This document shows positions 7,228-60,714 of a stretch of DNA of 64,000 nt, piece after piece. Within the stretch, counting starts at the first letter, position 1. The number at the start of each line of letters is the position of its first letter. The position numbers and the translations under genes are program-made. The notes beneath the pieces were generated by a model, which made no database searches, was not told where the DNA came from, and worked only from the letters and a program-made list of their open reading frames with translations. This stretch comes from a candidate division BRC1 bacterium HGW-BRC1-1 (GTDB taxonomy: Bacteria; Sumerlaeota; Sumerlaeia; Sumerlaeales; Sumerlaeaceae), in assembly GCA_002842095.1 (NCBI GenBank), contig PHCB01000006.1:3814-67813 (forward strand). The letters are read 5' to 3'.

Positions 7228-9800
7228 TCACTTGCGGTTTTCCATCACATCCCTTGCTGCCCGCGCGCGGCCGAGGGCGTGTCCAATCCCCGAATCGTCC
7301 GGCCAGCGCTTCTCGCCCTCCTGCGCCACCCGCTCCGCCACGTCGGCGCGACCCAGCGCCATGCACGCCGCCGATGCATCCGACACCGTTTCGGCATCCA
7401 CGTCCTCACGGGCGACCTCGGCCACGAGCGTCTCCAGGCCGCCTGCGCCAAGGGCCGCATCCACCATGCGCTGCCTTGCCGCCACGCGCGGTTCCAACAC
7501 GGTCACCCCCGACTGCGTCCCCGCTCGCGTCAGCGTCTCATACAAGTTCTTCGCACCCTTCAAATCGCCTGATCGCCATAGCCACAGGTCCATTTCATAC
7601 GCATCCACCCTTACAAACTGTTGAAAGAATAACCCTGCCTGTTCCCCCAGTTGCTGCGCGTGCCTCGCGAAGCTCTCCACTCGCACCGCCCTCGCACGGA
7701 GCGTCAGCGATTCCAGTTCTTCCGCCAGGTCATCCTTGCCCGCCCGTCGCCACAACACTGCCAGATACCCCTCGAAAAACGGTGACAGTGGATGCGCCCG
7801 CAAGCACGCACGCACGGCCCGGCGCTCTCTACGCGGCTGGCTCATCACCCGCGCCACGTCAATCTTCTCCATTCGTGTTTTAGACGCCGTCTCCCCGGGT
7901 CGCGCCGCAAGTGGTGCGGCTTCGTCCCACAGTTCCCTGCGAAGTGGCGTGTCGGGCATCCCCATCACCGCCTTTGCCCATAACTTGGCGCTGAAACCGC
8001 GAAGCGCGTCGAGCGCCGGCAACCGTTCCGTGTCCGTTGTCGCCGCGTCCAGCGCCCACAGCCACGGCACCGGATTAGCAGCCCACTCCCGCCCGGCCGC
8101 TTCAAGATCTTCTACCGATGGCCGCTTGCCCGAGTTCATCAGGGGCGAAATGTGCGAGAACGCTATACCCGCCGCATCATCTTGCACGGCATGCGCAAGC
8201 ATCCATCCATTTGCCCCTGCAATCCCAACCAGCAGCAGACCCGCTGCAATCCATACCCGACGCCCGCGCAGCCACCAAGCCCGCGTTCGCCACCCCCCCA
8301 GCGCCAGCACCACCACGACCGCGCCGCATGCCGCCAGCGCCGCTGCTGCACCCCCACGCCCTGCTGACAGCAACGCACCCACACTGTCGTATTGCATCGG
8401 CAACGTTGTCAAATACCCCGGAAATTCACGCCAGAAATCCCAGCCCAGCAGCGCCACTTCCGTGGCGAAAAACGGGCGCATGACCTGTCGTTCGAACCCC
8501 ACCGCCAGCACAACATTTGTTGCCACCACCAGTGCGCTCCACATGGGAAGCAACCCCAGCACACGCCGCGGCAGCCGCGCATAAACAGCAGCAAGACCCA
8601 CAGCGAAAAACGGCAGCAGGCTCGCAAAGCGCCGCATCCCGAACGACGAACCCGCCCACCAGTCGCCCGCGCACGCGTTCACGTAAACCGCCACGGCCAC
8701 CGCCGCAACCATCCCCGCGTGCGCCGACCACAACCGCCGCGGTATCACCAATCCAGCCAGCAGCCCCACCGCTCCTACCGCCAGAATCGGATGCCAATAG
8801 AACGCCCCATTCCACCCGGAGAATAACAGGTTCCACACCTCCGGCTGGCCCCAGCGCATGAAGCTGTCTCCCTGGGGAATCGTCAGCCAGTGCCCCAAAT
8901 ACGCCCGCCAATACGAAGCTTGCAGCGAAAACACGGCAGCAAACGCCACCCCCGCCGAAACCACTCCCGCCACCAGTCTCGTCGCGTTATAGCCTGCCTT
9001 GGGCTTGTTTTCTGATATCGATTCCCCCCCCCCCCGTGAATCCCAGACGCACGCCGCGCCATCTCTACCACCCAAAACCCCGCAGGCACCAACCCGAGCA
9101 CCACATCCTGCCAGCGCACAATCGTCACCAAGCCAAGCGCCGCACCCACCGCAACATAACTGCCCACCCCGTGAAATTTGCGCAATCGCATCGACAGCCA
9201 CAATAGCAGCGCCGTGGCAAACGCTGAGGAGGCATGGGACATCGTGGGATACCCGAACAGATACCCCAACAGCGTGCTGCCCAGACCCGCACCCAACGCG
9301 GCGTGCAGCGCCACTCGCTCGCCAAACCGCATTCGACACGCCTCGTACATGAGCAGCAACGCGAGCAGTCCATAAAACGCTGACCCCAGCGACACCGCCC
9401 ACCGGTACGGCGCCGAATAACGATCACCCGCCCAAGCCGGCGCACCCCACGGCAGATGCTCCGACACCAGGGCTGTCCCTCTCACCACGGCGAAAAAAGG
9501 CGACCACAATGCCGACGTACCCAACGCGAAATAATTACTCACCTGCCCCTGGTTGTTCGGCGTGCTCAGTCTGTCGCGCAGCGTCTCCACCGAATTGTTG
9601 CTCAGTGCCACATCGTTGGCCAACACCAGATCGCCGTCGAAGGCGGGTGACGAAAGATAAGAAAAATAAAACATATCATCGTAACCCACGCCCGACCACG
9701 GCGAAAACAACATCAAGAACAGCAATCCGAAAACCGCACCCAACACCCTGCGGTGCCGTCGCGCCCTCACGCTACGCCTCAAAATGCGCACCGCCCGCAT
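7228..9800 (-). pseudogene. Large multi-TM membrane protein, putative GT-C fold (PMT/ArnT-like) glycosyltransferase with a C-terminal soluble domain; frameshifted at a C12/G12 homopolymer
   Basis: Two overlapping minus-strand ORFs (8883..9800 and 7228..9402) in different frames. The membrane-protein-like sequence continues from the first frame (…ARRASGIHGGGG) into the second (GGGESISENKPKAGYNATRLVAGVV…) exactly at the homopolymer at 9024–9035. The N-terminal 120 aa of the 7228..9402 ORF looks non-coding. Confidence 0.55.
9024..9035. repeat. C12 (minus strand G12) homopolymeric tract at the frameshift site
   Basis: Counted directly in the sequence. 13 or 10 residues would restore a single roughly 855-aa reading frame. 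Confidence 0.8.
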
Positions 9801-40222: not shown

Positions 40223-40888
40223 ATGAAAACCAAACCTTATTTTTCACTCATGGCCGCCGGTGCTGCGGCCCTTCTGATAACCGCCTGTGGCGGAGAAAAA
40301 ACCGAACCAACCGCCACCACCCCCGAAGCCGAGGGGAACGTACCGACGATCGTCCTGCCCGAAACCACTCCGGCCCTCAGCGTGGCCCCGCCCACACGCG
40401 AGAGCCCCGAACCAACCTCCCCCACCGCCACCTCCGCGCCCAGTGATGAGACCACCGCCCCGGCAGTCAACCCCGCGCCAGAAACCTCGGCCCCCATGGC
40501 CATGGCCCCACCCCTGGATGTGCGCGCCGCAGTGACACCCGCCCCCACGCCGGTGATTGAAGAGAACATCCCCCCTGCCGCAGCTTTGGCCACGGTGCGC
40601 TCCGTGCTCGTTACCATCGACCCGCTGACCCAGCCGCGTCTGACCGCAGATAAAGAAGCCGTTATGCGCACCAACATGATGCACGTAATGCGCAAAGTGG
40701 AAGAGCCGGGAGCGTACAGCAAGGACGACCGGGAAAACGCCTCGGAACTGGCGGGAAAAATTGCCTATCAGTTTGAGGAAGCTCGCAACGCAACCAACGC
40801 CGATGTCACCATCAAACATTTAAAGCGCGCCGAAGAACTGCTTGGGCCGCTGGAAGAGACCGTGTCGCACGGCGCGGAATCTCAATAA
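40223..40888 (+). CDS. Lipoprotein with Pro/Thr/Ala-rich linker and a small C-terminal domain
   Basis: MKTKPYFSLMAAGAAALLITAC (lipobox LITAC), then PTATTPEAEG…APTPV low-complexity region. ORF-track start at 40112 is upstream of the signal peptide. Confidence 0.55.
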   Translation: MKTKPYFSLMAAGAAALLITACGGEKTEPTATTPEAEGNVPTIVLPETTPALSVAPPTRESPEPTSPTATSAPSDETTAPAVNPAPETSAPMAMAPPLDVRAAVTPAPTPVIEENIPPAAALATVRSVLVTIDPLTQPRLTADKEAVMRTNMMHVMRKVEEPGAYSKDDRENASELAGKIAYQFEEARNATNADVTIKHLKRAEELLGPLEETVSHGAESQ

Positions 40889-40918
40889 ACGCCTTCGGGG
40901 CGAAAGGTTTCAGGGCAT

Positions 40919-42118
40919 ATGATTTCTTCGATAATTCTCGCCGCCTCGGTGGCGGTGGCAGCCGTGTTTTCGGGCGGGCAGGTGACGCAGGATGATCTGA
41001 AAGCAGATGCATTCTTGCAGCGTGCACAACGACTCGATGAAACTCTGGAGCAGGCCACTGAGATGGCTCCGGTGGGGAGTGACGCGTACACCTCGGCCGT
41101 TCGGGCTATTGCGACCACCAAAATTCTGGCGGCTGCGGCCGGGGAACGGGGATTCCGGGCCGACGAGGCGGAGCGTAACGCTCGCGACGCAACCCGTCTG
41201 ATAGTTCTGCGCAAGATTTTCTATCTCGAACAGATAGCACCTCGGGTGCGCGATGCGCGGGCAGTCTATCTTCATCAGTTACAAAAAGCCCATGCGGAAA
41301 ACCCCGAGCTTTGCGAGGTTCCCGGAGAGTATTTCTTCCGTTATATTTTCATCGGCGATCCGAAGAGCAGCACGACTCCGCGTTGGGATGATCTGGAAAC
41401 CAGTGCGCTGGCGGTGCGCAAGAGGCTCGAAGCTCCCGGAGCGGATTTTGAGAAGATCGCCCGGGAAACGAGCAACTCGCAACCGCCTGAAAATCGCGGC
41501 ATGCTGCTGGGTCCGGTTACATCCCGGGGGATGGAATCGACCCGTACCCAGGCACTGGAGAAGGCGCCATTGGACGGTGTGAGCGAACCCTTCAAAACCA
41601 ACCGTGGCTGGATGATGGTGAAGATGGAGAAGCGTACGCCCCAGCGGATGCTCTCACCCGAGGAATCGTCGGAGACATTGGTCATGGCGCGCAAGCTACG
41701 GCGGTTCATGCCCGAAGCGGTGGAAACCAGCGTGACGCTGGAAGCTGTTGGAAAATACCCCCTTAAAATCGATGAGGCTGCTCTGTCATCGGATCCCGGC
41801 GCTGCCGACAAGGTGGTGGTGGAATCGCCCCTCTTCACTTTAAAAAACGGCGATATTTACGATAAGGTCTGGAAGAGCGTAAATCCTGTTCCCGAACCGA
41901 AGGATTTGTTGAGCGGCGCGGGAACCGTGGCCACACGAATGACAGTGGCCCGCATAGCCGAGAGAGACTTCGTGAGCCGGCAGCAGGTTTATGGCGATGC
42001 ATTGAAAACGATCGACGAAGCCACCGCCGCTGCCGCAGCCCGCCGCCTCGCCCCCGAGGTGCGCGACGGTGATGCGCTGCTGAAGGACAAGGGGTTCGAA
42101 ATTAAGGCGGGACGATAA
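40919..42118 (+). CDS. Parvulin-type peptidyl-prolyl cis-trans isomerase (SurA/PrsA-like periplasmic chaperone)
   Basis: N-terminal signal-like segment and helical chaperone region; PpiC-like motif …ADFEKIARETSNS…NRGMLLGPVTSRGM…PFKTNRGWMMVKMEKR. Confidence 0.55.
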   Translation: MISSIILAASVAVAAVFSGGQVTQDDLKADAFLQRAQRLDETLEQATEMAPVGSDAYTSAVRAIATTKILAAAAGERGFRADEAERNARDATRLIVLRKIFYLEQIAPRVRDARAVYLHQLQKAHAENPELCEVPGEYFFRYIFIGDPKSSTTPRWDDLETSALAVRKRLEAPGADFEKIARETSNSQPPENRGMLLGPVTSRGMESTRTQALEKAPLDGVSEPFKTNRGWMMVKMEKRTPQRMLSPEESSETLVMARKLRRFMPEAVETSVTLEAVGKYPLKIDEAALSSDPGAADKVVVESPLFTLKNGDIYDKVWKSVNPVPEPKDLLSGAGTVATRMTVARIAERDFVSRQQVYGDALKTIDEATAAAAARRLAPEVRDGDALLKDKGFEIKAGR

Positions 42119-42563
42119 AAGCGAAGCCTTTGGCACAAAGGCACGAAGGCACAAAGAAATGCAGGATGGGGCAAGGGCGTTCCGAGGCTGTTTGTGTTGT
42201 GAGATGACCAGCGCTCTATAAGCGGTACCATCCAAATGTGGGCCCGACGCCCTCGCCGCTCGCCGCAAGGCATTGTCTGCACGCCAAACCGTTTTTCCGA
42301 CGGAAGGATCTCTCGCAGGGCCGCAGGAACAAAACGGTTAGTTTATCCTTCAATCGGATTTTCTGGTGGGGGGTTCATCGCCGTTTGCGTTGTCAGATTC
42401 CGCCGCTCCTCCGGAGCGGGCTTTTAGGTGGGACGGTTCCGGGGGTTCCGGTCGCTGCGCTCCCTCCACCGCCCGGCTACTTGCCGAGCCCCCTCCGGGG
42501 GCACAAACACCATGACAGTTCACACCTGTCTGTATACAAAAAGCATATTGAGGACACAGCTGT

Positions 42564-42596
42564 CAGGCGACCGGCGAGGGCGCCGGTCCCACATTA
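42564..42596. repeat. R1 REP-like hairpin element, copy 4 (CAGGCGACCGGCGAGGGCGCCGGTCCCACATTA)
   Basis: Identical hairpin core to the copies at 3273, 7111 and 10219. Confidence 0.7.
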
Positions 42597-42666
42597 GTTG
42601 GTTCTGACAACCAAAAGGCCTCAGGCAAGCAGACGGGCAAATCATAAGGAGACCGATTTTCCCGGG

Positions 42667-42716
42667 CAAAAGAAAGCCCCCCGGAGCGGTGGCTTTTGGC
42701 CTGCCGCCCCGGGGGG
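42667..42716 (-). terminator. Rho-independent terminator-like hairpin (CCCCCCGGGG…22-nt loop…CCGGGGGG, then CTTTCTTTTG) downstream of gene 42767..44245
   Basis: Read on the minus strand directly after the stop at 42767. Confidence 0.5.
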
Positions 42717-42766
42717 AGGATAATTGTTACTGCTTCATGCTGCCGCGACTTGCGGCTGCGTGATGC

Positions 42767-44245
42767 TTAGTAGTTAAGCCACTCGTTCACGCCGGCCGTG
42801 ACGGCCATGGTGACGGTCGCAGGGGCCGGAGTGGTGTAGCTGTTGGCACCGGCGGGGGAATAAACACGCAGGTACTCCGCCGAGGAGTTGGACCCGTAGA
42901 AGTTTCCGGCAGCGTCAAAGGCGGCGTCGCGGGACGTGGTGCCGGTATAAGTGGCGCCAGCTTCATAGGCCACTGTGACTGTCGGGAACGTGCCGATCTC
43001 CAGCACCTTCATTCCAGCGGACACAGAATACACCAGTTTGGTGCCGTCGGGGCTGATATCCATGCCGCCCTGGGTGGTGGCCGCAAGGCCAACTCCGCCG
43101 GGTAGATTCGTGAAGGAGTTGAAGTCCACCGTCTGAGCAGGGGAGGTTGTGACGTGGATAAGAGCCGGAACCGCAGCGCCATCAGTGCTTCGATTCTGGC
43201 TGATCCACCAGCCGTTGTTTCCCGGCGCGATGGTGCTGTTCATGTTCTGCTGCAGGTTTCCAGCGGCGAAATCGTCGTAGGTGACGGTGGGGGCGGTATT
43301 GTAACCACTCGTCGCCGTGCCGATGGCGTAGCTGTAAAGGCTGCCTTTGCCCTCACCCAGGGTTGCGGCGGTGAGATCAAGGTCTTCATCGAGGGTGGTC
43401 ATCACACGACCACTTCCCGTGCCGGCCACATAAAGTCCACCAATGCTGCCGTGGAGGCCTGTACGCAAGCCGCCTGCGCCACGCACGATCGTCGAATCGA
43501 ACAGTTCCGAGAAGGCATTCGCAGGATTAGCCGCATCCATGATCCAGACGCCCGAGTGGGAATCTGACCAATCGCAGATGAACGGCGCGCCGTCAGGCGC
43601 TACACGAACACGGAAGGGGCTGGAATTGCCCACCCATGCGACGCCACCATTATAGGCGGTGTCCACCTGTCCGGTGATGTCCTGGAAGTCGTTCGACAAA
43701 ATGTAAACGCCATCCGTCATTGCAAGGCGCCCGTCGGCCGTGTTCACCGGCGTGGCGGCAACGCTGCCGGCATTGTTGACCACGTAAATCCGTCCGAAGG
43801 TCGCGTTGGCAGGGTTCTTGTCCACGGCCACACCATAAGGCGTGTAGAAGTTGAGGAACTTGTTGCCAGCGGGCAAGGGCCCCTCATCGCTGATCTTGGT
43901 GACAGCGCCATAGCCACTGGCGGCGGCGGTCACTTCGAAGGAATAGCTGCCGGCGGCCACATTGGCGGAGGCGTCATTCTTGCCGTCCCAAGCGACGGTG
44001 TTCAGACCCTTCAACTGCGACCCTGCGGCGATGGTGCGCACCACGGTGGTGGCGGGCAGCGGGCCCTTCACCTTCACGCTCACGCCGGTATCGGCGTTCT
44101 CGTTCAGGCGATAGCTGATGTTGTAGTTGTTACCACCCGTATTGGTGGCGGAAAGGTGCGCGGCGTAAACGTTTGCGTGACTGCTGGCGGCACTGCAAAG
44201 CAGCCCTGCCACAGCACACGAAATTGCGAAATGTTTGATGCTCAT
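42767..44245 (-). CDS. Secreted protein with an N-terminal FlgD-Ig-like domain followed by beta-propeller-like repeats
   Basis: Signal peptide MSIKHFAISCAVAGLLCSAASSHA. Ig-like domain SYRLNENADTGVSVKVKGPLPATTVVRTIAAGSQLKGLNTVAWDGKNDASANVAAGSYSFEVTA matches the FlgD Ig-like pattern (…G.H.F.WDG.D..G…G.Y.F.V.A). Confidence 0.5.
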   Translation of the reverse strand: MSIKHFAISCAVAGLLCSAASSHANVYAAHLSATNTGGNNYNISYRLNENADTGVSVKVKGPLPATTVVRTIAAGSQLKGLNTVAWDGKNDASANVAAGSYSFEVTAAASGYGAVTKISDEGPLPAGNKFLNFYTPYGVAVDKNPANATFGRIYVVNNAGSVAATPVNTADGRLAMTDGVYILSNDFQDITGQVDTAYNGGVAWVGNSSPFRVRVAPDGAPFICDWSDSHSGVWIMDAANPANAFSELFDSTIVRGAGGLRTGLHGSIGGLYVAGTGSGRVMTTLDEDLDLTAATLGEGKGSLYSYAIGTATSGYNTAPTVTYDDFAAGNLQQNMNSTIAPGNNGWWISQNRSTDGAAVPALIHVTTSPAQTVDFNSFTNLPGGVGLAATTQGGMDISPDGTKLVYSVSAGMKVLEIGTFPTVTVAYEAGATYTGTTSRDAAFDAAGNFYGSNSSAEYLRVYSPAGANSYTTPAPATVTMAVTAGVNEWLNY

Positions 44246-44658
44246 AAAAGCCCTCCAAGCTATAAGATGCAGTTCGATTGGATGCAAATCCCTTTGTGGG
44301 GAATCCTGACGATACCCTAACGTATCCGTTTGAAGAGAATGAAAAAGCCACCCGTCAACTTACGTCACGGCATTGCCAGCGTTTATCCAATGGCAAATTA
44401 TTGAACCATCAAGCAGGGCTGAGTCAACCTGCTTTTGGTCGGGGATTGCATATTTTTCTATTTTCGCGACGGGACGCGTCATTCTGACGGCTTCCTCAAA
44501 CGTGAGTCTGGGGCTACGCGCGGCAATTAGATTGATGGGAACCATGCAAAACGTCCTATGGGGATGCTGTACGGGGCGATAATGCCAGAAGCGGCGGTGG
44601 AGACTTCAGCAGTCCCCTGTCCTCTACAAGTCGACGCCTCGCCCCACTTTTTCTTCAA

Positions 44659-44698
44659 GTTGCGACCGGTGTGCAACCGGTGTGCAACCGGTGTGCAA
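44659..44698. repeat. Tandem 11-mer CCGGTGTGCAA ×3.6, the reverse complement of the TTGCACACCGG array at 32104
   Basis: Direct comparison. Lies in the 650-nt divergent intergenic region between the two FlgD-Ig-like paralogs. Confidence 0.75.
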
Positions 44699-44816
44699 GC
44701 CCCCCAAAACGCCCGCACTGATATTGACTTCCTTTGTGCCCATGCGCCTCGGTGATGCCTTTATCTATATCTGCGCAGGGCGGAGCAGAAAGCCTCCGAG
44801 GACTGTCATCTTTTCT

Positions 44817-44843
44817 TGACTTCCCCTCTCGCCCGATAAAAAT
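44817..44843 (+). promoter_or_regulatory. Putative sigma70-like promoter (TTGACT, then 15–16 nt, then TAAAAAT) about 55 nt upstream of gene 44896; AAGGAG ribosome-binding site at 44881
   Basis: Pattern match only. Confidence 0.3.
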
Positions 44844-44895
44844 GGTCGGATGATCGATTAAGGTTACCATCACCAAACCTAAGGAGTGAAGACGC

Positions 44896-46344
44896 ATGAA
44901 AAGATTACTTTTTGCAGCCTTGCTTGCGGGCGGACTTGTATCCGCGGCGCAGGCAGTCCCGTACGCGGGACAGATTCGCGTGAGCAGCTTGAGCGTGGCC
45001 CAGGGTGTCGGGCTAACGATCAACTACCAACTTAATGAAACCGCCGACAGTGTAGGTATCGAAATTCGCAATCTGTCGAACGTCGTTGTGGCGACTTTCA
45101 CCGGAACGGCCGCCCAAGGCGCCAATAGTGTGGCATGGAACGGCACTGCGGATAACGCTGCCGGTGCTGCCGTAACGGCCGGCAACTACCGCGTCCGCAT
45201 CACGGCCAACAAGAACGTTCCGCTGGGCTGGACGGAATTCGCGTCCAACCGCTCGGTGGGTAATTATGGTACGGCAACCATCCTGAACACGATATTCGAT
45301 GGCTATTCGGGCCGCTCCTTCATCCTCTCGCGCAACACAGACAGCCCGGCGTTTGGCTACGTGCTCGGTATCACCTCGTATCTCACGACTACCAACCATG
45401 CCGCAGCAGTCGTGTTTGATTCAGACCTCAGCATCTCCGCCGGCGACGACGGCTTCGCCTCGCGCAAACTGAAGGGCTTCGGCGACGGCGTGGCCATCAC
45501 GAACAACACCGCTTTCTGGGATGCCGTGATTGATCCCGATGATCCCACGCGCGTGTGGGCCACCGGTCAGGGTGGAGTTGGCGCTGGAGCCAATCAGACA
45601 GGACTCATGACCGCCAGCCCGATTTTGTCGGACAACCTTGTGGACGCGGATCCATTCGACCGTGCGGCTGTAATCCTGCCCCGTGGGTTGGAAGTAAAGA
45701 CTATCAGTGGCACCAAATACGCCTTCCTCACGGGTGGCACTGGTATCATCAACCGCGTGGTGATTGATGGCACCAACAACGTGCCGGACGTGGCAGCGGT
45801 GGATATTCTCGGTGTATCGGCAGTGTACTCGCGCGACGTTCGCTTCGATGCAGCTGGCAACCTCTACTACACCACGCGCGACGTCGCCGGTGGTAACATT
45901 TACCGCTGGGATGCAGCACTCGTGGCTTCCGCCGTGGCCGACAGCCTGACGCCTGCCAACGCCTCGTGGACCATCACGGGCACCGCTACTGCTGCCAACA
46001 TGATGAACGCTGCCATCGCTCCCAACGGCGACGTTTATACGCTGGCGGTTACGGGCACCGAGCGCGGTATCTATCTCGTTGGCAATATCTCCGCGCCGAC
46101 GCTGACCAAAACTCTGGCCCTGGCTGACCGCGTGGTCGATTACGTGGCCATCCCCTGGCAGCCCAGCACCGCCGGTGGACGCATTGCCGTGGATATCGCG
46201 GGCAACGTGTATGCCACGGATAACTCCGTGGAGCAGGTGCGTGCCTTCAGCCCCGGTGGCAACACCTCCCAGATTGTGGTTGCTCCCTCCAGCGAAACCT
46301 TCGCCGTGACGGCCGCCAACGTATCGGGTTGGGGCCTGTACTGA
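44896..46344 (+). CDS. Secreted protein with an N-terminal FlgD-Ig-like domain plus beta-propeller-like repeats (divergent paralog of 42767..44245)
   Basis: Signal peptide MKRLLFAALLAGGLVSAAQA; INYQLNETADSVGIEIRNLSNVVVATFTGTAAQGANSVAWNGTADNAAGAAVTAGNYRVRITA; shares …RFDAAGNLYYT… style repeats with the paralog. Confidence 0.5.
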   Translation: MKRLLFAALLAGGLVSAAQAVPYAGQIRVSSLSVAQGVGLTINYQLNETADSVGIEIRNLSNVVVATFTGTAAQGANSVAWNGTADNAAGAAVTAGNYRVRITANKNVPLGWTEFASNRSVGNYGTATILNTIFDGYSGRSFILSRNTDSPAFGYVLGITSYLTTTNHAAAVVFDSDLSISAGDDGFASRKLKGFGDGVAITNNTAFWDAVIDPDDPTRVWATGQGGVGAGANQTGLMTASPILSDNLVDADPFDRAAVILPRGLEVKTISGTKYAFLTGGTGIINRVVIDGTNNVPDVAAVDILGVSAVYSRDVRFDAAGNLYYTTRDVAGGNIYRWDAALVASAVADSLTPANASWTITGTATAANMMNAAIAPNGDVYTLAVTGTERGIYLVGNISAPTLTKTLALADRVVDYVAIPWQPSTAGGRIAVDIAGNVYATDNSVEQVRAFSPGGNTSQIVVAPSSETFAVTAANVSGWGLY

Positions 46345-46431
46345 TCAACTGACTTGCAACGGTAGAGAGGCGGGAGTGGCGGAAGCTGCTGTCGCCTCAC
46401 ACCGTTCGCATGGAATGTTACAATTAAGAAT

Positions 46432-46472
46432 CCCCCGCTGCCGGAAACCTGGCGGCGGGGGAATTTTTATTT
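46432..46472 (+). terminator. Rho-independent terminator for gene 44896..46344
   Basis: CCCCCGCTGCC-GGAAACCT-GGCGGCGGGGG followed by AATTTTTATTT. Confidence 0.65.
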
Positions 46473-46637
46473 GGAGGGGGATGTTTTCGGACGTTTCCGT
46501 TTGGGGATTCCGGTCGTTGCGTTACGTTTACAATCGCGTAACCCCGGTGACGTGCGCAGGGAGAACACGCAGGTCGGCCGGCCCCTTCACACCGTATCGC
46601 ATAGCGAATGCCAAATTGATCCAACCGGGCCGGAGAA

Positions 46638-47307
46638 TTATTGCTTCGCGGCGTCTTCCACACCCGTAAGGGATATTTGCGCTTTACGCATGAGACCACT
46701 GTACTCCTGCGCCGTGCGCGCCTGAGTCGCCAGTTCCACGTAATGGGTGAACTCGTCGAGATTATCGAGAACCACGCTTTTGGGGGAGTCGTCCTGGGAG
46801 GTGTCGGCCTCGATGCGTCCACGCAGTTGACCGGCCTGGTCTAACATTACGGCGGCTTTGTCGGCGGGCAGTTTCACGTCGTTGATAAGATCGAGATCAC
46901 GCAGGGTGGTGCGGATTTGGTCGGCGCCCGTGCGGGTGATGACAGCCGCCGACTTTTCGGTTTCAGCGGGTGCTGTGCGGATCGATGCCACGGCCGATGT
47001 GGGGATATCGGTGATGACCAGGGGCGGGGGTGTGGGGATGTCACCGGGGGGGGCGGCGGGGGGGGGGGGGGGTGCCGACGGGGGTGTCGGAGGGTGGCGG
47101 GAGGGTTGGGACGACGGGGGTGGCTACGATGTCGAGGGTTTCGGTGCCGGTGGCTTGGAGTTGTCCGGTGGCGTCGCGGGCGGGTTGTTCAACCGCGGGC
47201 GGGTTGGCGGCATCTTTGGGGGCGGAAGAACCGCATCCGGACAGGAGCAGGGCGCTGGTGCCACAGGCAAGAAGCCCAAGGGCGGTGCGGCGGAGATAAA
47301 GATTCAT
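46638..47307 (-). pseudogene. Lipoprotein with a Pro-rich linker and C-terminal domain, split into two ORFs by a frameshift at a G15/C15 homopolymer
   Basis: ORF 47041..47307 is MNLYLRRTALGLLACGTSALLLSGC (lipobox) …PPPPRRPPR*. ORF 46638..46991 (other frame) remains open and Pro-rich back through the homopolymer at 47058–47072, then gives a folded-looking C-terminal domain. Confidence 0.5.
47058..47072. repeat. G15 homopolymer (preceded by G8 at 47046–47053) inside the lipoprotein coding region
   Basis: Counted directly in the sequence. Confidence 0.8.
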
Positions 47308-47430
47308 GGTGGGGAATGGTCCTTTGATGAGATTTTGACAGGAAACTTAAGTTACCCTGCTCAAATTGGCAAGGGAATGTGTGAGGTCGATTGAGCACTT
47401 GTCCGGCGAGCAGGTGAGCAACCACTTGCC

Positions 47431-47476
47431 GGAAAAATAAGAGGCGCAGGCCGCCTCGCGAAAGGTAGCCTGCGCC
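47431..47476 (-). terminator. Rho-independent terminator for the pilin-like operon
   Basis: On the minus strand: GGCGCAGGC-loop-GCCTGCGCC followed by TCTTATTTTT. Confidence 0.55.
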
Positions 47477-47493
47477 TGCGGGGTTAACAACTG

Positions 47494-49590
47494 TCAGGGT
47501 TGGTGGCTCTTGGCGTATTCGAGCGACACGCGCTCGACGGCGGCTTCGTTGATGACGAGGAACATGGGCATGCCGGGCGGCGGTGTGGCGGCCTGCAGGC
47601 TGTTGTCCCACAGGTAATTACGATTGGGGGGAGAGTAGTAGGTGTGCCCGCTGTCATTACGCCAGGGCTTGATGCCAACAAGGCTCTCGTAGAGGCAGAT
47701 GAGCGAGCCGTTAAAAGTGTGCTTCTTGCCGCTCCAGTTTTCGAGGTAGCGCATGACGTTGTGAGCACCACCGCTCTGGGTGATGCGTTTGCCGGCGGCG
47801 TTAAATTTCGAGCCGGTCTGGCCCATCACTATAATGAGATTGGTGATCAAACCATCGCTACCGGAGGGAGGCACGGCGGTGGGGTTTTGCGAAACAGTAA
47901 CCCTGCCTCCGGTGATCGGATCGTTCGCGGTTCCGCTTCCTTCGCGGGTGTAGCCGGTGGGAAGCGACGAAGTAAGAGGGAAAGATTTGCTGGTATTGAG
48001 AGAGGAGCGTATTTCGTATATATCGCCCACCTTAACGGACACGGGGTAATCGAGCTTCAGTTCCTGGGACGTGACAGTCACCGCATCGGCCGCGAAGACA
48101 GCCGCGACTTTGCTGGTGCTGTTAATATTGCCGACTGTATAAAGGGGCCGGTCGGTTGCGAAAGTGAAGCCCGACTGCAGGTTGCGGGGTACGCTTGTGG
48201 CGTTCTTCACGCGGATGGCGGGCATGAAATCGTCGCGGCCGTATCCGCCCCAGTTCTGGGGCGAAGTCCAGTTGTCACCGGAAGCCGGAGTGGTGCTGGC
48301 ATAAAGCACACCATTTTGAAAGGTGAGATTCCGGGCGACGATTTTAGACATGTCGATGTCGATGGTGCGCACAACTGTTTCCTGCTGGCCATCATAGAAC
48401 TCACCGATAGTCCAAATGGGGTTGTTCCCATTGGCGTCGGTGTTGGAGACGACGTTGCCATTGGAATCCACTATTTTAATGGTGTCGGGATTGCCCGGGT
48501 TACCGGTAATCTTGAGGTCGGCCATGCTTTCAAACTTGAGTTCTTGCACCGCCTGGCTGTCGCCGGGTTGCAGACGGGCGATCATGTCAGAAGCCTCGCT
48601 GCCCACGGGAAGGGGTGGGTTGATGGTGCGCGTGGCGTGGGCTTGATCGCGCACAATGCCGCCCCAGCGGGAAATGGCGTCATTCTGCCAGTTGAGATCG
48701 AGACCATCGAGATATTTGTTATTGTTGGTGTCGAGGCTACTGCCAGTCCCGACATACATGTTCAACCAGTTACCGGCGGCGTTCTTGAACTTCACGTCAC
48801 CCAGGTTTGTGTATGATTCAAGGGGATAAATATATCCAGAGTCCTTGCTGGTTGCATTGATTTTCGTATTTGTGAAGTCGTTATAGGCCCGAATGCGACC
48901 CACGGACGAGACTCGACCCCAGAAGTTCAAGCCGCTTGAGGCACCCAGCCACAGTGTGCCGTTGCAGTGAACCGGTCCACGAACGTCCATCAGAGGACCC
49001 GGGTGAAGCTCCATGTCGGGGTTGTAGAAAATAGCGAACTGATAAAGGGGAACGTAGTCGAGGGTCACGATCTTGCGGGCGGCGATACCTTGCACGCCCA
49101 GCTTGTCGGCATTGGCAGAGTTCTCGCGGACAGCGGCGACAAGCTCATATTCAAGGCGCCCCGTGGAGTAGCCGTCCCAGCGATCGGCGGGATCGTCGAT
49201 GACGCGGAACTGGAGATCGTTGGGCCCGAGACTACGCACATAAACCGCGTCTTTGTTCCCGTTCTTTACCGGTTCGTACCCATAGAACGAAGCCGGGCGC
49301 ATGGCATTAACGATGCCATTAATCTGGTCCATGCGTCCGCCGGTCTGGGGCGGACGGTTGTTCATGACAAACTGAATATCCGCCGCCATGCACGAAAGCA
49401 CGGCGTGGGCTCCCGCGAGTGAGTTTTCCACCACACGGGTGCGGTAGAGGTTGGTCATCTGAGTGGTGGTCTGGTGGATCATCAACGCCACACCGGCACT
49501 GAGAACCAGAACGAACACGCATGCCGAAAGCAGGGACGAACCCCTGCGACGACGGGAACCGGGTTTGGTGCGAAGCGATAATTTTTTCAT
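47494..49590 (-). CDS. Large (698-aa) pilus/T2SS-associated protein with an N-terminal pilin-like TM anchor (GspK/PilX/PilY-like minor pilin or tip protein)
   Basis: MKKLSLRTKPGSRRRRGSSLLSACVFVLVLSAGVALM N-terminus without Glu+5; large Asn/Gly/Thr-rich beta domain; last gene of an operon with two prepilins. Confidence 0.35.
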   Translation of the reverse strand: MKKLSLRTKPGSRRRRGSSLLSACVFVLVLSAGVALMIHQTTTQMTNLYRTRVVENSLAGAHAVLSCMAADIQFVMNNRPPQTGGRMDQINGIVNAMRPASFYGYEPVKNGNKDAVYVRSLGPNDLQFRVIDDPADRWDGYSTGRLEYELVAAVRENSANADKLGVQGIAARKIVTLDYVPLYQFAIFYNPDMELHPGPLMDVRGPVHCNGTLWLGASSGLNFWGRVSSVGRIRAYNDFTNTKINATSKDSGYIYPLESYTNLGDVKFKNAAGNWLNMYVGTGSSLDTNNNKYLDGLDLNWQNDAISRWGGIVRDQAHATRTINPPLPVGSEASDMIARLQPGDSQAVQELKFESMADLKITGNPGNPDTIKIVDSNGNVVSNTDANGNNPIWTIGEFYDGQQETVVRTIDIDMSKIVARNLTFQNGVLYASTTPASGDNWTSPQNWGGYGRDDFMPAIRVKNATSVPRNLQSGFTFATDRPLYTVGNINSTSKVAAVFAADAVTVTSQELKLDYPVSVKVGDIYEIRSSLNTSKSFPLTSSLPTGYTREGSGTANDPITGGRVTVSQNPTAVPPSGSDGLITNLIIVMGQTGSKFNAAGKRITQSGGAHNVMRYLENWSGKKHTFNGSLICLYESLVGIKPWRNDSGHTYYSPPNRNYLWDNSLQAATPPPGMPMFLVINEAAVERVSLEYAKSHQP

Positions 49591-49641
49591 GATGCGTGAT
49601 GCCCTTTCCGTGGCACGCGACAGGCGCGGACCACAAACAAA

Positions 49642-50244
49642 TCAAATAGCGCCGGGTACGAAACTAACATTGATGACAAAAGCCTGATAGCCGGGACCTG
49701 TCTCCAGATCGTCCGTTTTACGGACGGCCGCATTGCGCGAAGTATTGCGGTCGCCGACGCGAACAATCAAATTTGCGAAGGTTCGGTCGGCGGTGTCGTC
49801 CTGCTGAAACACGGGCAGGGTCGCTCCACCGGAGGTGACCTGGGAGCAAAGCGACAACCTGACGCGGGCCCCGGTGTTGGTATCAGCGGTGACACGTTCG
49901 AGAATCTGATTATCGCCGATGGTGTTAAGGTTTCCGTCTCCGTTGGCGAAAACGTATTGTCTAACGCTGTTATCGGGGCGAATGAACTGCAGCATGGTGC
50001 CGCTGTTGAGCACACCCACCGATTGCGCTTCGGCAGCTTCGAATTCGAGCGTTTGCACGAATCGGCGGGCGCTCTCCTCCATGCGGGTGCGCGTGGTGAG
50101 GCTCTTGGCGGCGCGGGCGTAAATGACCATGGTGCTGGCCATGGCAATACCCGCCATGGCGAAGATGGACAGCGCCACGATCATCTCTGTGAGGGTTACG
50201 CCGCGAGTGCGCAAGCGGGTGAATGGCTTAGAGGCGGTTATCAT
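49642..50244 (-). CDS. Prepilin-type (type IV pilin / T2SS pseudopilin-like) protein
   Basis: Class III signal: …TRG|VTLTEMIVALSIFAMAGIA with Glu at +5. Confidence 0.65.
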   Translation of the reverse strand: MITASKPFTRLRTRGVTLTEMIVALSIFAMAGIAMASTMVIYARAAKSLTTRTRMEESARRFVQTLEFEAAEAQSVGVLNSGTMLQFIRPDNSVRQYVFANGDGNLNTIGDNQILERVTADTNTGARVRLSLCSQVTSGGATLPVFQQDDTADRTFANLIVRVGDRNTSRNAAVRKTDDLETGPGYQAFVINVSFVPGAI

Positions 50245-50966
50245 TAATTAGCCCTCGCGACAAATACCGTGCGGTTGATGGTCTGGTGGCGCGACCCATC
50301 ACCCCAGGTGATGGTGATGCGTGCGGTTTTACCATCGTCGATATAGAATTTTGACGTAGAGTCGGGATTCAGCGACCAGTTGGTCGAGGTTGCCCCGGTC
50401 AGATCGGCGGTCAAACTGAGCGTGTTTGCGGTGTTGCTTTGAATGCGCATAATCTGTGTGCGCCCGAGACCCTCGGTGATGGTGACGTAATGCCCCGTCC
50501 ATTCGTTGGTATTCCAAGCCGACAAACCAGCCGGGAAAGATGCGGTGAGGCTATTGCCGGTGGCCGACGCCACGCTCCCCCATCCTGTGAAGGTAAAAGA
50601 AACGTTATAAATCGTAGACGCCGATGGCTCGGAGGGGTTGCTATACACCGTTTGGGGGGTGAGAAATAGGCGGGCAAAGGCTCCCGACGGAGCTGCCTGA
50701 TCACCCAGATAGGCCGGAGTTGACGCGCGGATCATGGATGCATATTTTACAGCCAGATTGACGCCGTAAAGATGCTGGGTGTTGACCTCAGCCTGACGCG
50801 CGGTGAAAACCATGGCGCTGATGAAGGCCAGCGTGGTGATGGCAATGATGGCCACCGCGAACACGGCTTCGACAAGAACCATGCCTTTCTGTCGGTGAAA
50901 GCGAATGATCACAACGCACAGTCCTTGTGGGGCAAGTAGTGGGTAGGACGGATTACGGTTTTTCAT
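50244..50966 (-). CDS. Prepilin-type protein (pseudopilin-like)
   Basis: …RFHRQKG|MVLVEAVFAVAIIAITTLAF with Glu at +5. Start chosen at MKNRNP (ATG 50966); the ORF-track start at 51074 is less likely. 1-nt overlap with the next gene. Confidence 0.55.
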   Translation of the reverse strand: MKNRNPSYPLLAPQGLCVVIIRFHRQKGMVLVEAVFAVAIIAITTLAFISAMVFTARQAEVNTQHLYGVNLAVKYASMIRASTPAYLGDQAAPSGAFARLFLTPQTVYSNPSEPSASTIYNVSFTFTGWGSVASATGNSLTASFPAGLSAWNTNEWTGHYVTITEGLGRTQIMRIQSNTANTLSLTADLTGATSTNWSLNPDSTSKFYIDDGKTARITITWGDGSRHQTINRTVFVARAN

Positions 50967-51131
50967 AAGCAAACGGAGTGCCACATAATAAGTGGATCGG
51001 TGTGATGACAGAACACTGATAACGAATAGTTTAGATTTTAGGCACGGGCACCTGGCAGGGGAAAAGAGTTGCACAAAAAGAGTGCGTCGCTCATTATTTG
51101 TGCAGGCGACATGGGGGAGACCGGAGCGAGG

Positions 51132-51203
51132 GAATGGACGTTAATGGACGATATGGACACTATGGACGAAATGGACGGGGGTGGATTGGACGGATGGGAC
51201 AGG
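51132..51203. repeat. Tandem 9-mer array (A/T)ATGGACNN: AATGGACGTT-AATGGACGA-TATGGACAC-TATGGACGA-AATGGACGG…GGATTGGACGGATGGGACAGG, in the divergent promoter region between the pilin operon and the LysM-CE4 gene
   Basis: Related arrays at 60715–60760 and 62535–62585, each adjacent to a G7–G8 run. Confidence 0.7.
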
Positions 51204-51253
51204 CAATTTGGGTGCAGGTTGATGACCTTCGGGCTTTTCGAGTAGTTTGAGTT

Positions 51254-52351
51254 ATGATTAATCAAACATCAATCATCGCCCGCGGGTTGCTGGTGGCTGC
51301 CCTGTTGCCTTGGTTATGGGCCGATGCCAGCGGGGCGTGGTGGAATTCGCGTCGGTCGGCGCGGGAAACTCCCCCGCCGCCGGTGCCTGCCCGCTCCCAT
51401 CAAGCGCCGACCAGCCAGCCGGATCGTAAACAGCGTCGTGCGCTGCCGGAAGAAAATTTGTCGCCGGCTCCGGCTGCCGCGCCGGAAACGCCGGCACCTT
51501 TTGTTGCAATGGAACCAGGCACGGCGAGCGACTCGGGGTTCACGACGGTCACCTTTGATTTTTCCGTACCGATCAGAGAAGTTGCACGTTGGGGTGATTT
51601 GTCGACTTCCGAGATTCTGGCGGGAAACGGACTGACCTACAAACGCCTGCGGGCGGGGCAGGTGCTGAAAATTCCAGCTGTCGAAAACGGAATACCCGGG
51701 GAGGTCATGGCCGGGGAGATGTCGCGGGAAATCTGGCGCGGGGTGCGGGGAGCCCGGCGCATCGCGCTGACATTCGACGCCGGAGGCGAGAACGACGCCG
51801 CCGAGGAGTTGGTCGCGGTTTTGAAGGAGACGGAGACGTCGGCAAGTTTCTTCGCGACCGGGCGTTTTGCGCGGCGCTATCCCCGCGAGATGGCACTGCT
51901 GGCCTCTGCGGGTCCGGTCTATAATCATTCCGATACGCATCCGGATTTCACCACGATTTCGGCTGAAATGATCCGGGATGAATTACAACACGCGGAAGAT
52001 TCGGTGAGTTCCCAAACGGGGCAATCCACGAGACCATTTTTCCGTCCGCCTTTCGGCGAACGCAATCGCGCAGTTCTCGAAACCGCCGCAGACGCCGGGT
52101 GGAAAAGTGTCTATTGGACGCTGGACAGTCTGGACGGTTACGACGAAACGCTGAAAGGTGAAGAGCTGGCTCGCAATGTGTTGGAGCCGCGACGCACCAA
52201 CGGGGCCTCGGCGGACGAGTTTCTCGACGGGGCCATCGTGTTGATGCACGTGGGCAATCACGAAACGGTGAAGGCGCTGCCGGAAATTATCGGTGGGTTG
52301 CGCGAGCGCGGTTTCGAACTGGTTCCGCTGGACACACTTCTTCAGCCGTGA
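51254..52351 (+). CDS. LysM domain plus polysaccharide deacetylase (CE4/NodB) protein
   Basis: Signal/TM N-terminus; LysM (DLSTSEILAGNGLTYKRLRAGQVLKIP); NodB motifs TFDAGGEN…, HSDTHPDF, LMHVGN. Confidence 0.7.
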   Translation: MINQTSIIARGLLVAALLPWLWADASGAWWNSRRSARETPPPPVPARSHQAPTSQPDRKQRRALPEENLSPAPAAAPETPAPFVAMEPGTASDSGFTTVTFDFSVPIREVARWGDLSTSEILAGNGLTYKRLRAGQVLKIPAVENGIPGEVMAGEMSREIWRGVRGARRIALTFDAGGENDAAEELVAVLKETETSASFFATGRFARRYPREMALLASAGPVYNHSDTHPDFTTISAEMIRDELQHAEDSVSSQTGQSTRPFFRPPFGERNRAVLETAADAGWKSVYWTLDSLDGYDETLKGEELARNVLEPRRTNGASADEFLDGAIVLMHVGNHETVKALPEIIGGLRERGFELVPLDTLLQP

Positions 52352-52448
52352 TCAGCACGGTGCGGTGAAACGCGTTGCATTTTTACCCCGACAGGTTTCA
52401 AGGTCTGGGAAAATCGGAGCCTCGCGCCAGACCGGAGATCAATTCATC

Positions 52449-60707: not shown

Positions 60708-60714
60708 GGGGGGG

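What the first reader, a model, noticed from the sequence alone, without database searches (positions are those of the whole stretch)
47046..47072. G15 (plus G8) homopolymer frameshift in a Pro-rich lipoprotein gene
A 15-nt G run, exceptional for any genome, lies in the coding region of a lipoprotein whose N-terminal ORF (47041..47307, lipobox LSGC) and C-terminal ORF (46638..46991) are in different frames. Both frames read poly-Pro across the tract, so tract-length changes would switch production of the C-terminal domain on or off. This is a second candidate contingency locus in a surface protein, alongside the C12 tract at 9024.
Basis: partly seen in the sequence, partly recalled or inferred. 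Interest (0 to 1): 0.6.

Follow-up and report, generated by a model that had tools for sequence, protein, structure and literature searches.

The report
Unconfirmed poly-G frameshift in lipoprotein gene
A run of 15 G's splits one small surface-lipoprotein gene in a deep-groundwater bacterium and could act as an on/off switch, but no other assembly of the same population reproduces the run and one shows an intact gene instead, so it is at best an ordinary kind of switch and may be an assembly error.

Summary
G15 lies at 47058-47072 and G8 at 47046-47053, which read as C15 and C8 on the gene strand. They sit inside one lipoprotein gene (46638-47307, minus strand) and split it into an 88-aa stub and a 117-aa ORF. 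Four full-length homologues show this is a single gene: lipobox, a roughly 90-aa disordered Pro-rich tether, then a C-terminal four-helix bundle. Lengths C14, C11, C17, or C15+C7 restore a 222-aa protein.

The window comes from the Sumerlaeota (BRC1) MAG HGW-BRC1-1, assembled from HiSeq2000 reads with IDBA-UD and ra2 curation. Twenty-four independent contigs from the same population match the window 100% over about 22 kb, except at 47030-47070. All 16 informative contig ends stop at 47014-47099. None shows the long run. The only read-through (L007) carries an in-frame, ortholog-like sequence, GTGPEPTPAVPPGD, with no run longer than 7. Every window-specific change lengthens a C run.

By contrast, the sister C12 tract at 9024 is reproduced independently and varies in length (11 or 12).

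Verdict: a real slippage-prone allele co-existing with the ancestral intact allele, about 0.5. A gap-closure artefact, about 0.33. Either way it is a known kind of feature and of low to moderate interest.

The parts
47058..47072 (-). C15 homopolymer on the coding strand (G15 on +), in the linker-coding part of the gene
   Evidence: It is present only in the window's assembly. The orthologous position in relatives and in allele A has no run longer than 7.
47046..47053 (-). C8 homopolymer four bases downstream of the C15 (G8 on +), a second possible slippage site
   Evidence: Allele A has C7 here because of a T instead of C at 47053. C15+C7 also restores the frame.
46638..47307 (-). The whole lipoprotein gene, interrupted by a +1 frameshift as written. 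It gives 222 aa with C14 and 224 aa in allele A.
   Evidence: Homologues P0001, P0002, P0021 and P0022 (212-229 aa) cover both halves.
47041..47307 (-). N-terminal ORF, 88 aa: signal peptide, lipobox and part of the tether, ending at a TGA directly after the C8
   Evidence: This exact product is not on record in public gene calls.
47233..47307 (-). Signal peptide with lipobox LSGC (Cys25)
   Evidence: Regex [LVI][ASTVI][GAS]C matches at residues 22-25. L[SA]GC, LAAC or LTAC is conserved at the same place in all homologues.
46638..46991 (-). C-terminal ORF, 117 aa from a GTG, annotated in the MAG as PKO18670.1 / CVU37_04600. It has no signal peptide of its own.
46641..46958 (-). Predicted four-helix bundle, the only folded domain (residues 117-221 of the repaired protein)
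   Evidence: AlphaFold2 pLDDT is 74-97 over this part and below 50 for most of residues 1-117. Fold matches are generic up-down four-helix bundles.
47014..47099 (.). Segment that no independent assembly resolves. All 16 informative contig ends or N-gap edges fall here.
   Evidence: Left ends are at 47022, 47065, 47089 x3, 47095 and 47099 x3. Right ends are at 47014, 47029 x2, 47030, 47039, 47048 and 47052. All differences from the window lie at 47030-47070.
47075..47090 (.). Inverted repeat CCGAC-N6-GTCGG directly 5' of the C15 on the gene strand. Most left-hand contigs stop at or just before it.
   Evidence: Read from the sequence. It is the only stable stem in the DNA fold.
47441..47457 (-). 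Terminator-like hairpin after the upstream 698-aa gene, so the lipoprotein gene probably has its own promoter
46431..46462 (.). Strong G+C hairpin with T runs on both strands between the convergent lipoprotein and 482-aa genes, a likely bidirectional terminator
47494..51074 (-). Context: upstream cluster of pseudopilin-like genes (698 aa, 200 aa with an N-methylation motif, 222-276 aa). The gene order is conserved next to the orthologous lipoprotein gene.

Best explanation
One gene encodes a small lipoprotein made of a lipid anchor, a roughly 90-residue disordered Pro/Thr/Ala-rich tether, and a C-terminal four-helix bundle. It lies next to a pseudopilin-like cluster in the Sumerlaeota bacterium HGW-BRC1-1. 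In the allele captured by this MAG, the tether-coding DNA has lost the six non-C bases (GG, GAA, A) that interrupt a C-rich Pro-codon stretch in the ancestral allele. It also carries two nearby changes to C. The result is a C14/C15 run followed by C8. A run this long should gain and lose bases by slipped-strand mispairing. C14, C11 or C17 (or C15+C7) give the full 222-aa protein. C15, as written, gives an 88-aa anchored stub without the folded domain. C16 gives a 144-aa out-of-frame product. The tract would therefore work as a stochastic on/off switch for the folded domain. It co-exists in the aquifer population with the ancestral, non-slippery, always-on allele A. Shown: the gene architecture, that it is a single gene, the in-silico frame logic, that allele A exists, and that the locus is the only variable spot in about 22 kb compared. 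Inferred: that the C15 allele exists in cells, that its length varies, and that switching is useful to the organism.
For: 1.
2. A single gene with a conserved lipobox, a variable linker and a conserved helical domain is shown.
3. The tract lies in a disordered linker that tolerates change. Linker length and sequence differ in all homologues, and the only two differences between P0021 and P0024 are in the linker.
4. The source data are HiSeq2000 four-colour reads, so two-colour dark-cycle poly-G is excluded. Assembly was IDBA-UD plus ra2, which demands read support.
5. The MAG fills five other gaps left as N's in JGI scaffolds, and independent MEGAHIT contigs confirm all five at 100% identity.
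6. The window allele is a clean sequence. It keeps the isolated G's of GCCG and 22 correct bases before the 47030 change, which does not fit a degraded read tail. One independent MEGAHIT contig (L016) also has the window's base at 47030.
7. The same genome holds a second long G/C tract 38 kb away. It is also a lineage-specific insertion that disrupts a surface-related gene, a GT-C/PMT_2-like membrane protein. Independent contigs reproduce it with lengths 11 and 12.
8. Removing exactly the six interrupting bases from allele A gives C14, the in-frame length.
Against: 1. No independent contig contains the tract or even its start. Nine left-hand contig ends and seven right-hand ends stop at 47014-47099.
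2. The two contigs that pass GGCACC continue GGCCCCG (allele A). Four of five contigs covering 47030 carry the allele-A base.
3. All eight differences between the window and allele A lengthen a C run on the gene strand (a G run on +). They cluster in 41 nt, against none in the rest of the roughly 22 kb compared. That pattern looks more like a systematic error than ordinary divergence.
4. Deriving the tract from allele A needs about six events in a population that is otherwise clonal.
5. No tract-length polymorphism has been seen at this locus.
6. The G-rich strand has 14 G-tracts in 132 nt in allele A, a strong G-quadruplex candidate, beside an inverted repeat. It is therefore a plausible coverage desert where gap closure is error-prone.
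7. HGW-BRC1-1 meets the paper's stated criteria for manual contig editing.
Confidence: 0.5

Rival explanations
1. Assembly or gap-closure artefact. The real sequence in cells is allele A (…GGCACCGGCCCCGAACCCACCCCCGCCGTCCCCCCCGGT…), and the gene is intact at 224 aa. The linker-coding segment is about 75% G+C, has 14 G-tracts on one strand, and sits next to an inverted repeat with GGC motifs. Few clean Illumina fragments cross it, so every assembler stops there. The MAG's closure, by IDBA-UD local assembly, ra2/Velvet re-assembly or manual extension in Geneious, merged error-prone read ends on a homopolymer-like overlap. That produced an arbitrary G15 and the frameshift.
For: 1. The tract is not reproduced in any of nine other assemblies made with at least three other assemblers.
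2. The only read-through is in frame and resembles the orthologues (GTGPEPTPAVPPGDIPTTPP against GTGPDPKPAVPPSDIPTTPP).
3. The JGI scaffold has a 10-N gap exactly at 47040-47088.
4. Every difference lengthens a run of the same base.
5. The differences become denser along the + strand reading direction: 47030, then 47053, then 47062-47070.
6. The genuine C12 tract does appear in independent contigs, so a genuine C15 should have left some trace.
7. The orthologous linker has no canonical G4 motif and assembles even at about 1x k-mer coverage, so the difficulty is specific to this sequence.
8. The curation procedure allowed contigs to be modified by hand.
9. From my own knowledge, not checked here: sequence-specific Illumina errors after GGC motifs and inverted repeats were described by Nakamura et al. 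2011 (Nucleic Acids Res).
Against: 1. Base-call errors do not shorten a sequence, yet the window is 5 nt shorter than allele A.
2. Isolated G's flanked by C's (GCCG) are kept while GG and GAA are lost. This is the opposite of what dephasing predicts.
3. Reads were quality-trimmed, and ra2 requires stringently mapped read support.
4. The MAG's other five gap closures are exact.
5. L016 independently shows the window's base at 47030.
6. The genome demonstrably carries another real long G/C tract in a surface-related gene.
Confidence: 0.33
2. The tract is real, but the locus is a decaying allele rather than a selected switch. A subpopulation has inactivated a dispensable lipoprotein, and the run drifts in length with no useful on state.
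For: The reference state is off. The sister C12 locus is off at both observed lengths, G11 and G12, since G10 or G13 is needed. The family is very small and its function is unknown. An intact allele is present in the same population.
Against: The C-terminal frame has no other lesions. The 117-aa part is identical in all contigs and conserved in homologues. The off state is one step from on. A run of 15 cannot be stable, so switching happens whether or not it is selected.
Confidence: 0.1
3. The tract is real and is decoded through. RNA polymerase slippage on the 15-nt run, or ribosomal frameshifting on CCC codons, yields a share of full-length protein from the C15 template. Expression would then be graded rather than switched at the DNA level.
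For: The run is longer than an RNA:DNA hybrid, so realignment would cost little (general knowledge of transcriptional slippage on long homopolymers, not tested here). Both frames read Pro across the tract, so slipped products are near-native.
Against: There are no transcript or protein data. Documented productive slippage mostly involves A/T runs. This mechanism would add to DNA-level slippage rather than replace it.
Confidence: 0.05
4. The two ORFs are independent genes that happen to abut at the tract.
For: The MAG's annotation lists the 117-aa ORF as a separate hypothetical protein.
Against: All four full-length homologues are single polypeptides covering both parts. The second ORF lacks a signal peptide. 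Its frame is open back into the tract.
Confidence: 0.01

Closest known systems
Intragenic poly-G/C contingency genes of Campylobacter jejuni (reviewed in PMC8355987; standing variation shown in PMC3025981)
   Same: A G/C homopolymer sits inside an ORF for a surface-related product. Changes of one base switch between a full-length and a truncated protein. Several such tracts occur per genome, and glycosyltransferases are among the targets, like the C12 locus here.
   Different: Campylobacter tracts are usually G8-G13, and their variability has been measured in reads and colonies. Here the run is 15+8, the organism is an uncultured Sumerlaeota bacterium from deep groundwater, no length census exists, and the tract is not reproduced in other assemblies.
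Neisseria meningitidis SSR phase-variable genes, such as poly-G in the hmbR/hpuAB ORFs (PMC3786947; genome-wide prediction and deep-sequencing validation in PMC5084427)
   Same: A coding-region poly-G tract gives on/off expression of an envelope protein. The prediction was made from sequence first and then validated by deep sequencing, which is the step missing here.
   Different: Those are host-adapted pathogens with experimentally confirmed switching. Here a non-slippery ancestral allele appears to co-exist in the same population.
Homopolymer-tract frameshift phase variants in the Mycobacterium tuberculosis complex (bioRxiv 10.1101/2022.06.10.495637, also PMC10334774)
   Same: A high-G+C organism in which indels in short G/C runs reversibly silence genes. 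This shows the mechanism is not limited to classic contingency-locus pathogens.
   Different: Those tracts are short (about 7-10) and were inferred from recurrent indels across thousands of isolates. No such population sampling exists here.
Borrelia Fbp-type surface lipoproteins (FbpC 8ec3, FbpA 7rpr, FbpB 7rps) and CyanoQ (3zsu)
   Different: Sequence identity is 8-12%, and de novo designed bundles score as well or better. This is a generic fold match, not homology, and no function can be transferred.
Coverage gaps and sequence-specific Illumina errors in G-rich, GGC or inverted-repeat contexts (Nakamura et al. 2011, from my own knowledge, not retrieved here)
   Same: All assemblers break at the locus. 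The differences from the validated allele run towards one base. An inverted repeat plus GGC motifs lie immediately upstream.
   Different: Such errors are substitutions. They do not explain the 5-nt shortening or the retained isolated G's.

Membership tests
Homopolymeric-tract (SSR) phase-variable contingency gene | A long G/C homopolymer (about 8 or more) inside the ORF or promoter | tested here: met
   C15 plus C8 on the coding strand in the window. The chance expectation for runs of 12 or more is 0.01 per window.
Homopolymeric-tract (SSR) phase-variable contingency gene | The tract is reproducible in independent sequence data from the same organism | tested here: not met
   None of 16 informative contig ends from nine other assemblies shows the run. 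L007 and L008 show a non-homopolymeric sequence, and the JGI scaffold has N's there.
Homopolymeric-tract (SSR) phase-variable contingency gene | Changes of one base in tract length switch between a full-length and a truncated product | tested here: met
   In silico, C11, C14 and C17 give 221-223 aa. C12, C15 and C18 give 87-89 aa. C13 and C16 give 143-144 aa. C15+C7 gives 222 aa.
Homopolymeric-tract (SSR) phase-variable contingency gene | Tract-length polymorphism within or between populations | tested here: inconclusive
   No second observation of the tract exists, so there is no census. The locus is the only variable spot in about 22 kb compared. The variation seen is allele A against allele B, not run length. 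At the sister C12 locus, lengths 11 and 12 are seen.
Homopolymeric-tract (SSR) phase-variable contingency gene | Reversible, high-frequency switching with a phenotype | not testable with these tools
   This needs reads, a culture or single-cell data.
Homopolymeric-tract (SSR) phase-variable contingency gene | The product is exposed at, or modifies, the cell surface | tested here: inconclusive
   The lipobox and signal peptide are present and conserved, and the gene neighbours a pseudopilin-like cluster. Localisation to the outer surface is an inference.
Bacterial lipoprotein (Lgt/LspA substrate) | An N-terminal signal peptide ending in the lipobox [LVI][ASTVI][GAS]C | tested here: met
   LSGC at residues 22-25 follows a basic n-region (RR) and a hydrophobic core. 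Equivalent boxes occur in all four homologues.
Bacterial lipoprotein (Lgt/LspA substrate) | Actual lipidation and processing | not testable with these tools
   No experimental data are available.
Assembly or gap-closure artefact | Not reproduced by independent assemblies of the same population, while an alternative in-frame sequence exists | tested here: met
Assembly or gap-closure artefact | Spanning high-quality reads contradict the deposited sequence | not testable with these tools
   Raw reads (PRJNA321556) cannot be reached from here.
Assembly or gap-closure artefact | The differences fit a known error process | tested here: inconclusive
   All changes lengthen C/G runs, which fits. The 5-nt shortening and the retained isolated G's do not fit.
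Diversity-generating retroelement variable region | Adenine-specific substitutions without indels, plus a template repeat copy nearby | tested here: not met
   The differences include G and T positions and indels. There is no second copy of the linker in the 64-kb window. The rest of the genome was not searched.

The most novel reading that the evidence does not exclude
The birth of a contingency locus has been caught in a natural, near-clonal deep-subsurface population. The ancestral Pro-linker allele and a derived allele co-exist in the same aquifer samples. In the derived allele, exactly the six interrupting bases (GG, GAA, A) were purged to give an in-frame C14, now slipped to C15. The rest of the genome shows no differences over tens of kilobases. 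This would imply strong local mutational bias, possibly linked to G-quadruplex formation, or selection for switchability. With the polymorphic G11/G12 tract in a glycosyltransferase-like gene, it would mean that Sumerlaeota in 140-250 m deep groundwater use pathogen-style contingency loci on envelope genes.
Probability: 0.2. Interest if true: 0.65.

Novelty: new member of a known kind. Interest (0 to 1): 0.3.

Why it matters
If the tract is real, it extends classic homopolymer phase variation of envelope proteins to an uncultured candidate phylum in a slow, deep-subsurface habitat. Phage or predator pressure would be the likely driver there. It would also offer a rare view of ancestral and slippery alleles side by side.

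If the tract is an artefact, the case is a practical warning. A curated, high-quality MAG can carry a fabricated homopolymer and a false pseudogene at a G-rich linker. Comparing independent assemblies of the same population is a cheap way to flag such sites.

Either way, the gene should be annotated as one lipoprotein gene, not as a stand-alone 117-aa ORF.

Tried and rejected
1. Searches for relatives of the lipoprotein in GTDB representative genomes and in JGI metagenome contigs found nothing.
2. A 20-mer from the tract's left flank, searched in JGI contigs, gave 25 chance matches and none from this locus. This confirms only that no JGI contig reaches 47073-47092.
3. This wasted the last GTDB scan. 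The organism was identified later through a protein name.
4. Exact-product look-ups of the 88-aa ORF, the 117-aa ORF read with V as first residue, and the 815-aa ORF were not on record. The V-start version of the 117-aa ORF did work through P0023.
5. Pfam and NCBIfam give no family for the lipoprotein.
7. Two-colour 'dark G' chemistry is rejected as the cause because the data are HiSeq2000.
8. A DGR is rejected.
9. Stable Watson-Crick structure as the cause of assembly failure is not supported. Fold z-scores are 0.1-0.8 and only a 5-6-bp hairpin forms. G-quadruplexes are not modelled by that tool.
10. Literature searches for the sample accessions found nothing. The later Horonobe time-series paper does not mention BRC1 or homopolymers.

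Full report
**What is in the sequence**

On the + strand the window reads …CACC G8 CGGC G15 TGCC…. The G8 is at 47046-47053 and the G15 at 47058-47072. G/C run counts fall about 4-fold per added base up to length 8. They then jump to one C12 (9024-9035) and this G15. Runs of 12 or more are expected 0.01 times per dinucleotide-preserving shuffle.

On the minus strand, an ATG at 47307 opens an 88-aa ORF. Its product starts MNLYLRRTALGLLACGTSALLLSGC…, with the lipobox LSGC at residues 22-25. It ends at a TGA directly after the C8. A second frame is open from the first C of the tract down to the stop at 46638. The listed 117-aa ORF 46991..46638 is only the part of that frame after the first GTG. 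All frames read Pro across the tract.

**One gene, not two**

A profile search of 1.84 billion representatives added P0021 (229 aa) and P0022 (223 aa). It also returned P0020, which is the window's own 117-aa ORF.

All four full-length homologues share one plan:
- a signal peptide with a lipobox;
- a Pro/Thr/Ala-rich linker that varies in length and sequence;
- a conserved C-terminal domain.

The P0001 locus keeps the window's gene order of 212, 200 and 699-aa genes followed by the lipoprotein.

The upstream neighbours look like pseudopilins. One has a prokaryotic N-methylation motif. A terminator-like hairpin separates them from the lipoprotein gene.

**Frame logic**

| Tract state | Product |
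|---|---|
| C11, C14 or C17 with C8 | 221-223 aa, full length |
| C15+C7 or C15+C10 | 222-223 aa, full length |
| C15+C8 (as written) | 88-aa stub |
| C13 or C16 with C8 | 143-144 aa, out of frame |

The tract lies in the disordered tether, where extra or missing prolines should do no harm.

**Source of the window**

A 100% match of the neighbouring C12 gene's product, and the exact 117-aa ORF (PKO18670.1, CVU37_04600), place the window on a 405,153-nt contig of 'candidate division BRC1 bacterium HGW-BRC1-1'. This is a 3.77-Mb, 34-contig Sumerlaeota MAG from 140-250 m deep groundwater at the Horonobe Underground Research Laboratory (PMC8092238; PMC5520028).

The data were HiSeq2000 PE150 reads from TruSeq Nano libraries. 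They were trimmed with Sickle and assembled with IDBA-UD (k 40-100). The ra2 suite then curated the assemblies automatically. The best bins were also curated by hand in Geneious. Four-colour chemistry rules out the two-colour 'dark cycle' poly-G artefact.

**Independent assemblies of the same population**

Exact-product look-ups of flanking genes retrieved 24 contigs. They come from MEGAHIT assemblies (ERZ27239239-44), JGI records (3300029821, 3300038334-6) and Logan assemblies (SRR3546450-55). Over 6859-15670 and 40875-53590 they match the window 100.000%, apart from N gaps, one 81-nt deletion in L050, the G11/G12 difference at the C12 tract, and positions 47030-47070.

The contigs behave as follows at the locus:
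- Eight contigs approaching from the left, plus the left edge of a JGI N-gap, stop at 47099 (x3), 47095, 47089 (x3), 47065 and 47022. A ninth left-hand contig (L015) stops upstream of the gene, at 47384, and is uninformative.
- Six contigs approaching from the right, plus the right edge of the N-gap, stop at 47014, 47029 (x2), 47030, 47039, 47048 and 47052.
- The 180,801-nt JGI scaffold spans the locus with ten N's exactly over 47040-47088.
- By arithmetic, one 38,033-nt MEGAHIT contig runs from about 9020 to 47052, that is from the C12 tract to the G8 tract. I did not read its left end.

No contig shows even the start of a long C run after GGCACC.

**Allele A**

The two contigs that pass the start of the tract position (GGCACC) read GGCACC-GGCCCCG… (L008) and GGCACC-GGCCCCGAACCCACCCCCGCCGTCCCCCCCGGTGACATCCCCACAACCCCGCCC (L007). 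L007's sequence is in frame. It encodes GTGPEPTPAVPPGDIPTTPP, which parallels GTGPDPKPAVPPSDIPTTPP and GMGPAPTPVVPPSDIPTTPP in the orthologues. With the shared downstream sequence it gives an intact 224-aa protein.

Allele A is therefore real and ancestral. It sits in the same genomic background on both sides.

At 47030, the allele-A base is seen in L007, L019, L020 and L056. The window's base is seen only in L016.

**How the window's allele differs**

Relative to allele A, the window lacks GG and GAA. It also has A>C in the main tract, T>C at 47053 (turning C7 into C8) and A>C at 47030. Put another way, deleting exactly the six non-C bases from allele A gives C14, the in-frame length, and the window has one more C. 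Every change lengthens a C run. Eight differences fall in 41 nt, against none elsewhere.

**Weighing the two main readings**

In favour of a real, slippage-prone allele:
- The data are four-colour, quality-trimmed and checked for read support.
- The MAG's closure of five other gaps left as N's in the JGI scaffolds is confirmed 100% by MEGAHIT contigs.
- The window allele is a clean sequence. It keeps the isolated G's of GCCG, which dephasing errors should remove first.
- Base-call errors cannot shorten a sequence by 5 nt.
- L016 shares the 47030 base with the window.
- The same genome carries a second long tract that is demonstrably real (described in the next section).

In favour of an artefact:
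- The tract is not reproduced at all, whereas the C12 tract is.
- The only read-through shows an intact, ortholog-like gene.
- The differences run in one direction and become denser along the + strand.
- An N-gap lies at exactly this place in a related scaffold.
- The G-rich strand has 14 G-tracts in 132 nt and 10 overlapping canonical G4 starts in allele A. The orthologue that assembles easily has none.
- An inverted repeat, CCGAC-N6-GTCGG, followed by GGC motifs lies where most left-hand contigs stop.
- The curation procedure allowed manual contig editing.

Both readings need the locus to be a technical coverage desert, because even allele A was never assembled end to end. I put the real-allele reading at about 0.5 and the artefact at about 0.33. 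Most of the remainder goes to a real but functionless decaying allele, with a little for read-through decoding. Only the reads can settle it.

**The sister locus**

The C12 tract at 9024-9035 (G12 on the gene strand) splits a GT-C/PMT_2-like membrane protein encoded at 9800..7228. Homologues of 790-848 aa, including a paralogue in the same MAG, are contiguous. The tract lies in a 17-aa loop insertion that they lack.

Independent contigs show G12 (L048) and G11 (L051, and L049 at its contig end). The in-frame lengths are G10 and G13. This tract is therefore real and differs in length between samples, although it is off in both observed states. It is the better-supported contingency candidate in the window. 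It raises the prior that the G15 is real, but does not prove it.

**Comparison with known systems and novelty**

Intragenic G/C homopolymers that switch envelope proteins or glycosyltransferases on and off are well established. Examples are Campylobacter (PMC8355987, PMC3025981), Neisseria (PMC5084427, PMC3786947) and the M. tuberculosis complex (10.1101/2022.06.10.495637).

If real, this locus is a new member of that kind, in an uncultured phylum and an unusual habitat. Its notable features would be the very long run and the apparent co-existence of the ancestral allele. If it is an artefact, there is no feature, only a mis-closed gap and a falsely split gene. Interest is low to moderate in either case.

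Noticed in passing
window 9024-9035 (gene 7228-9800, minus strand): The C12 tract (G12 on the gene strand) splits a GT-C/PMT_2-like membrane protein. Homologues of 790-848 aa are contiguous, and the tract sits in a 17-aa loop insertion they lack. Independent contigs show G12 (L048) and G11 (L051, L049), so the tract is real and differs in length between samples. The in-frame lengths would be G10 or G13, so both observed states are off.
   Followed up: yes
window 60708-60760: An intergenic G8 follows a terminator-like hairpin and T run. After it come about five imperfect 9-10-nt tandem units (GGATGGACG, GAATGGACG, GAATGGACGA, TATGGACAC, TATGGACAG).
   Followed up: no
window 47494-51074 (minus strand); L001 391-3782: A cluster of pseudopilin-like genes (698 aa; 200 aa with an N-methylation motif; 222-276 aa) lies upstream of the lipoprotein gene. 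The same order occurs in the orthologous locus, which suggests a link to a type IV pilus-like or type II secretion-like apparatus.
   Followed up: partly
window ~10353-10395, ~41707, ~46133, ~49205, 50071-50140: JGI scaffolds of the same population carry N gaps at these five places. The window's sequence across all five is matched 100% by independent MEGAHIT contigs, so the MAG's gap closure is accurate wherever it can be checked.
   Followed up: yes
L050 (JGI 3300029821) against window 11758-11838: This contig lacks 81 nt at the 3' end of secY and the following spacer, giving a SecY of 457 aa instead of 471. It could be a real deletion variant or an assembly error.
   Followed up: no
window 47046, 47099, 52610, 54718 (+) and 53306, 25478, 9044, 4590 (-): The 64-kb window holds only eight canonical G-quadruplex motifs. 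Both homopolymer loci coincide with such motifs, and the lipoprotein linker is by far the densest.
   Followed up: partly
window 52398-54362 (-) against 52293-54260 (+): A 654-aa ORF runs antisense to the real phosphoglucomutase gene. Long spurious antisense ORFs are common in this 59% G+C sequence and misled one of my searches.
   Followed up: yes
window 42767-44287 (-) and 44896-46344 (+): Two secreted proteins with FlgD-Ig-like domains flank a 61-aa ORF next to the lipoprotein gene. One also shows weak beta-propeller matches. Their function is unknown.
   Followed up: no
P0021 against P0024 (Logan contigs of a distant relative): The only two amino-acid differences between these 229-aa variants (A76T, T86I) fall in the linker. 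This fits the tether being the fast-evolving part of the family.
   Followed up: partly
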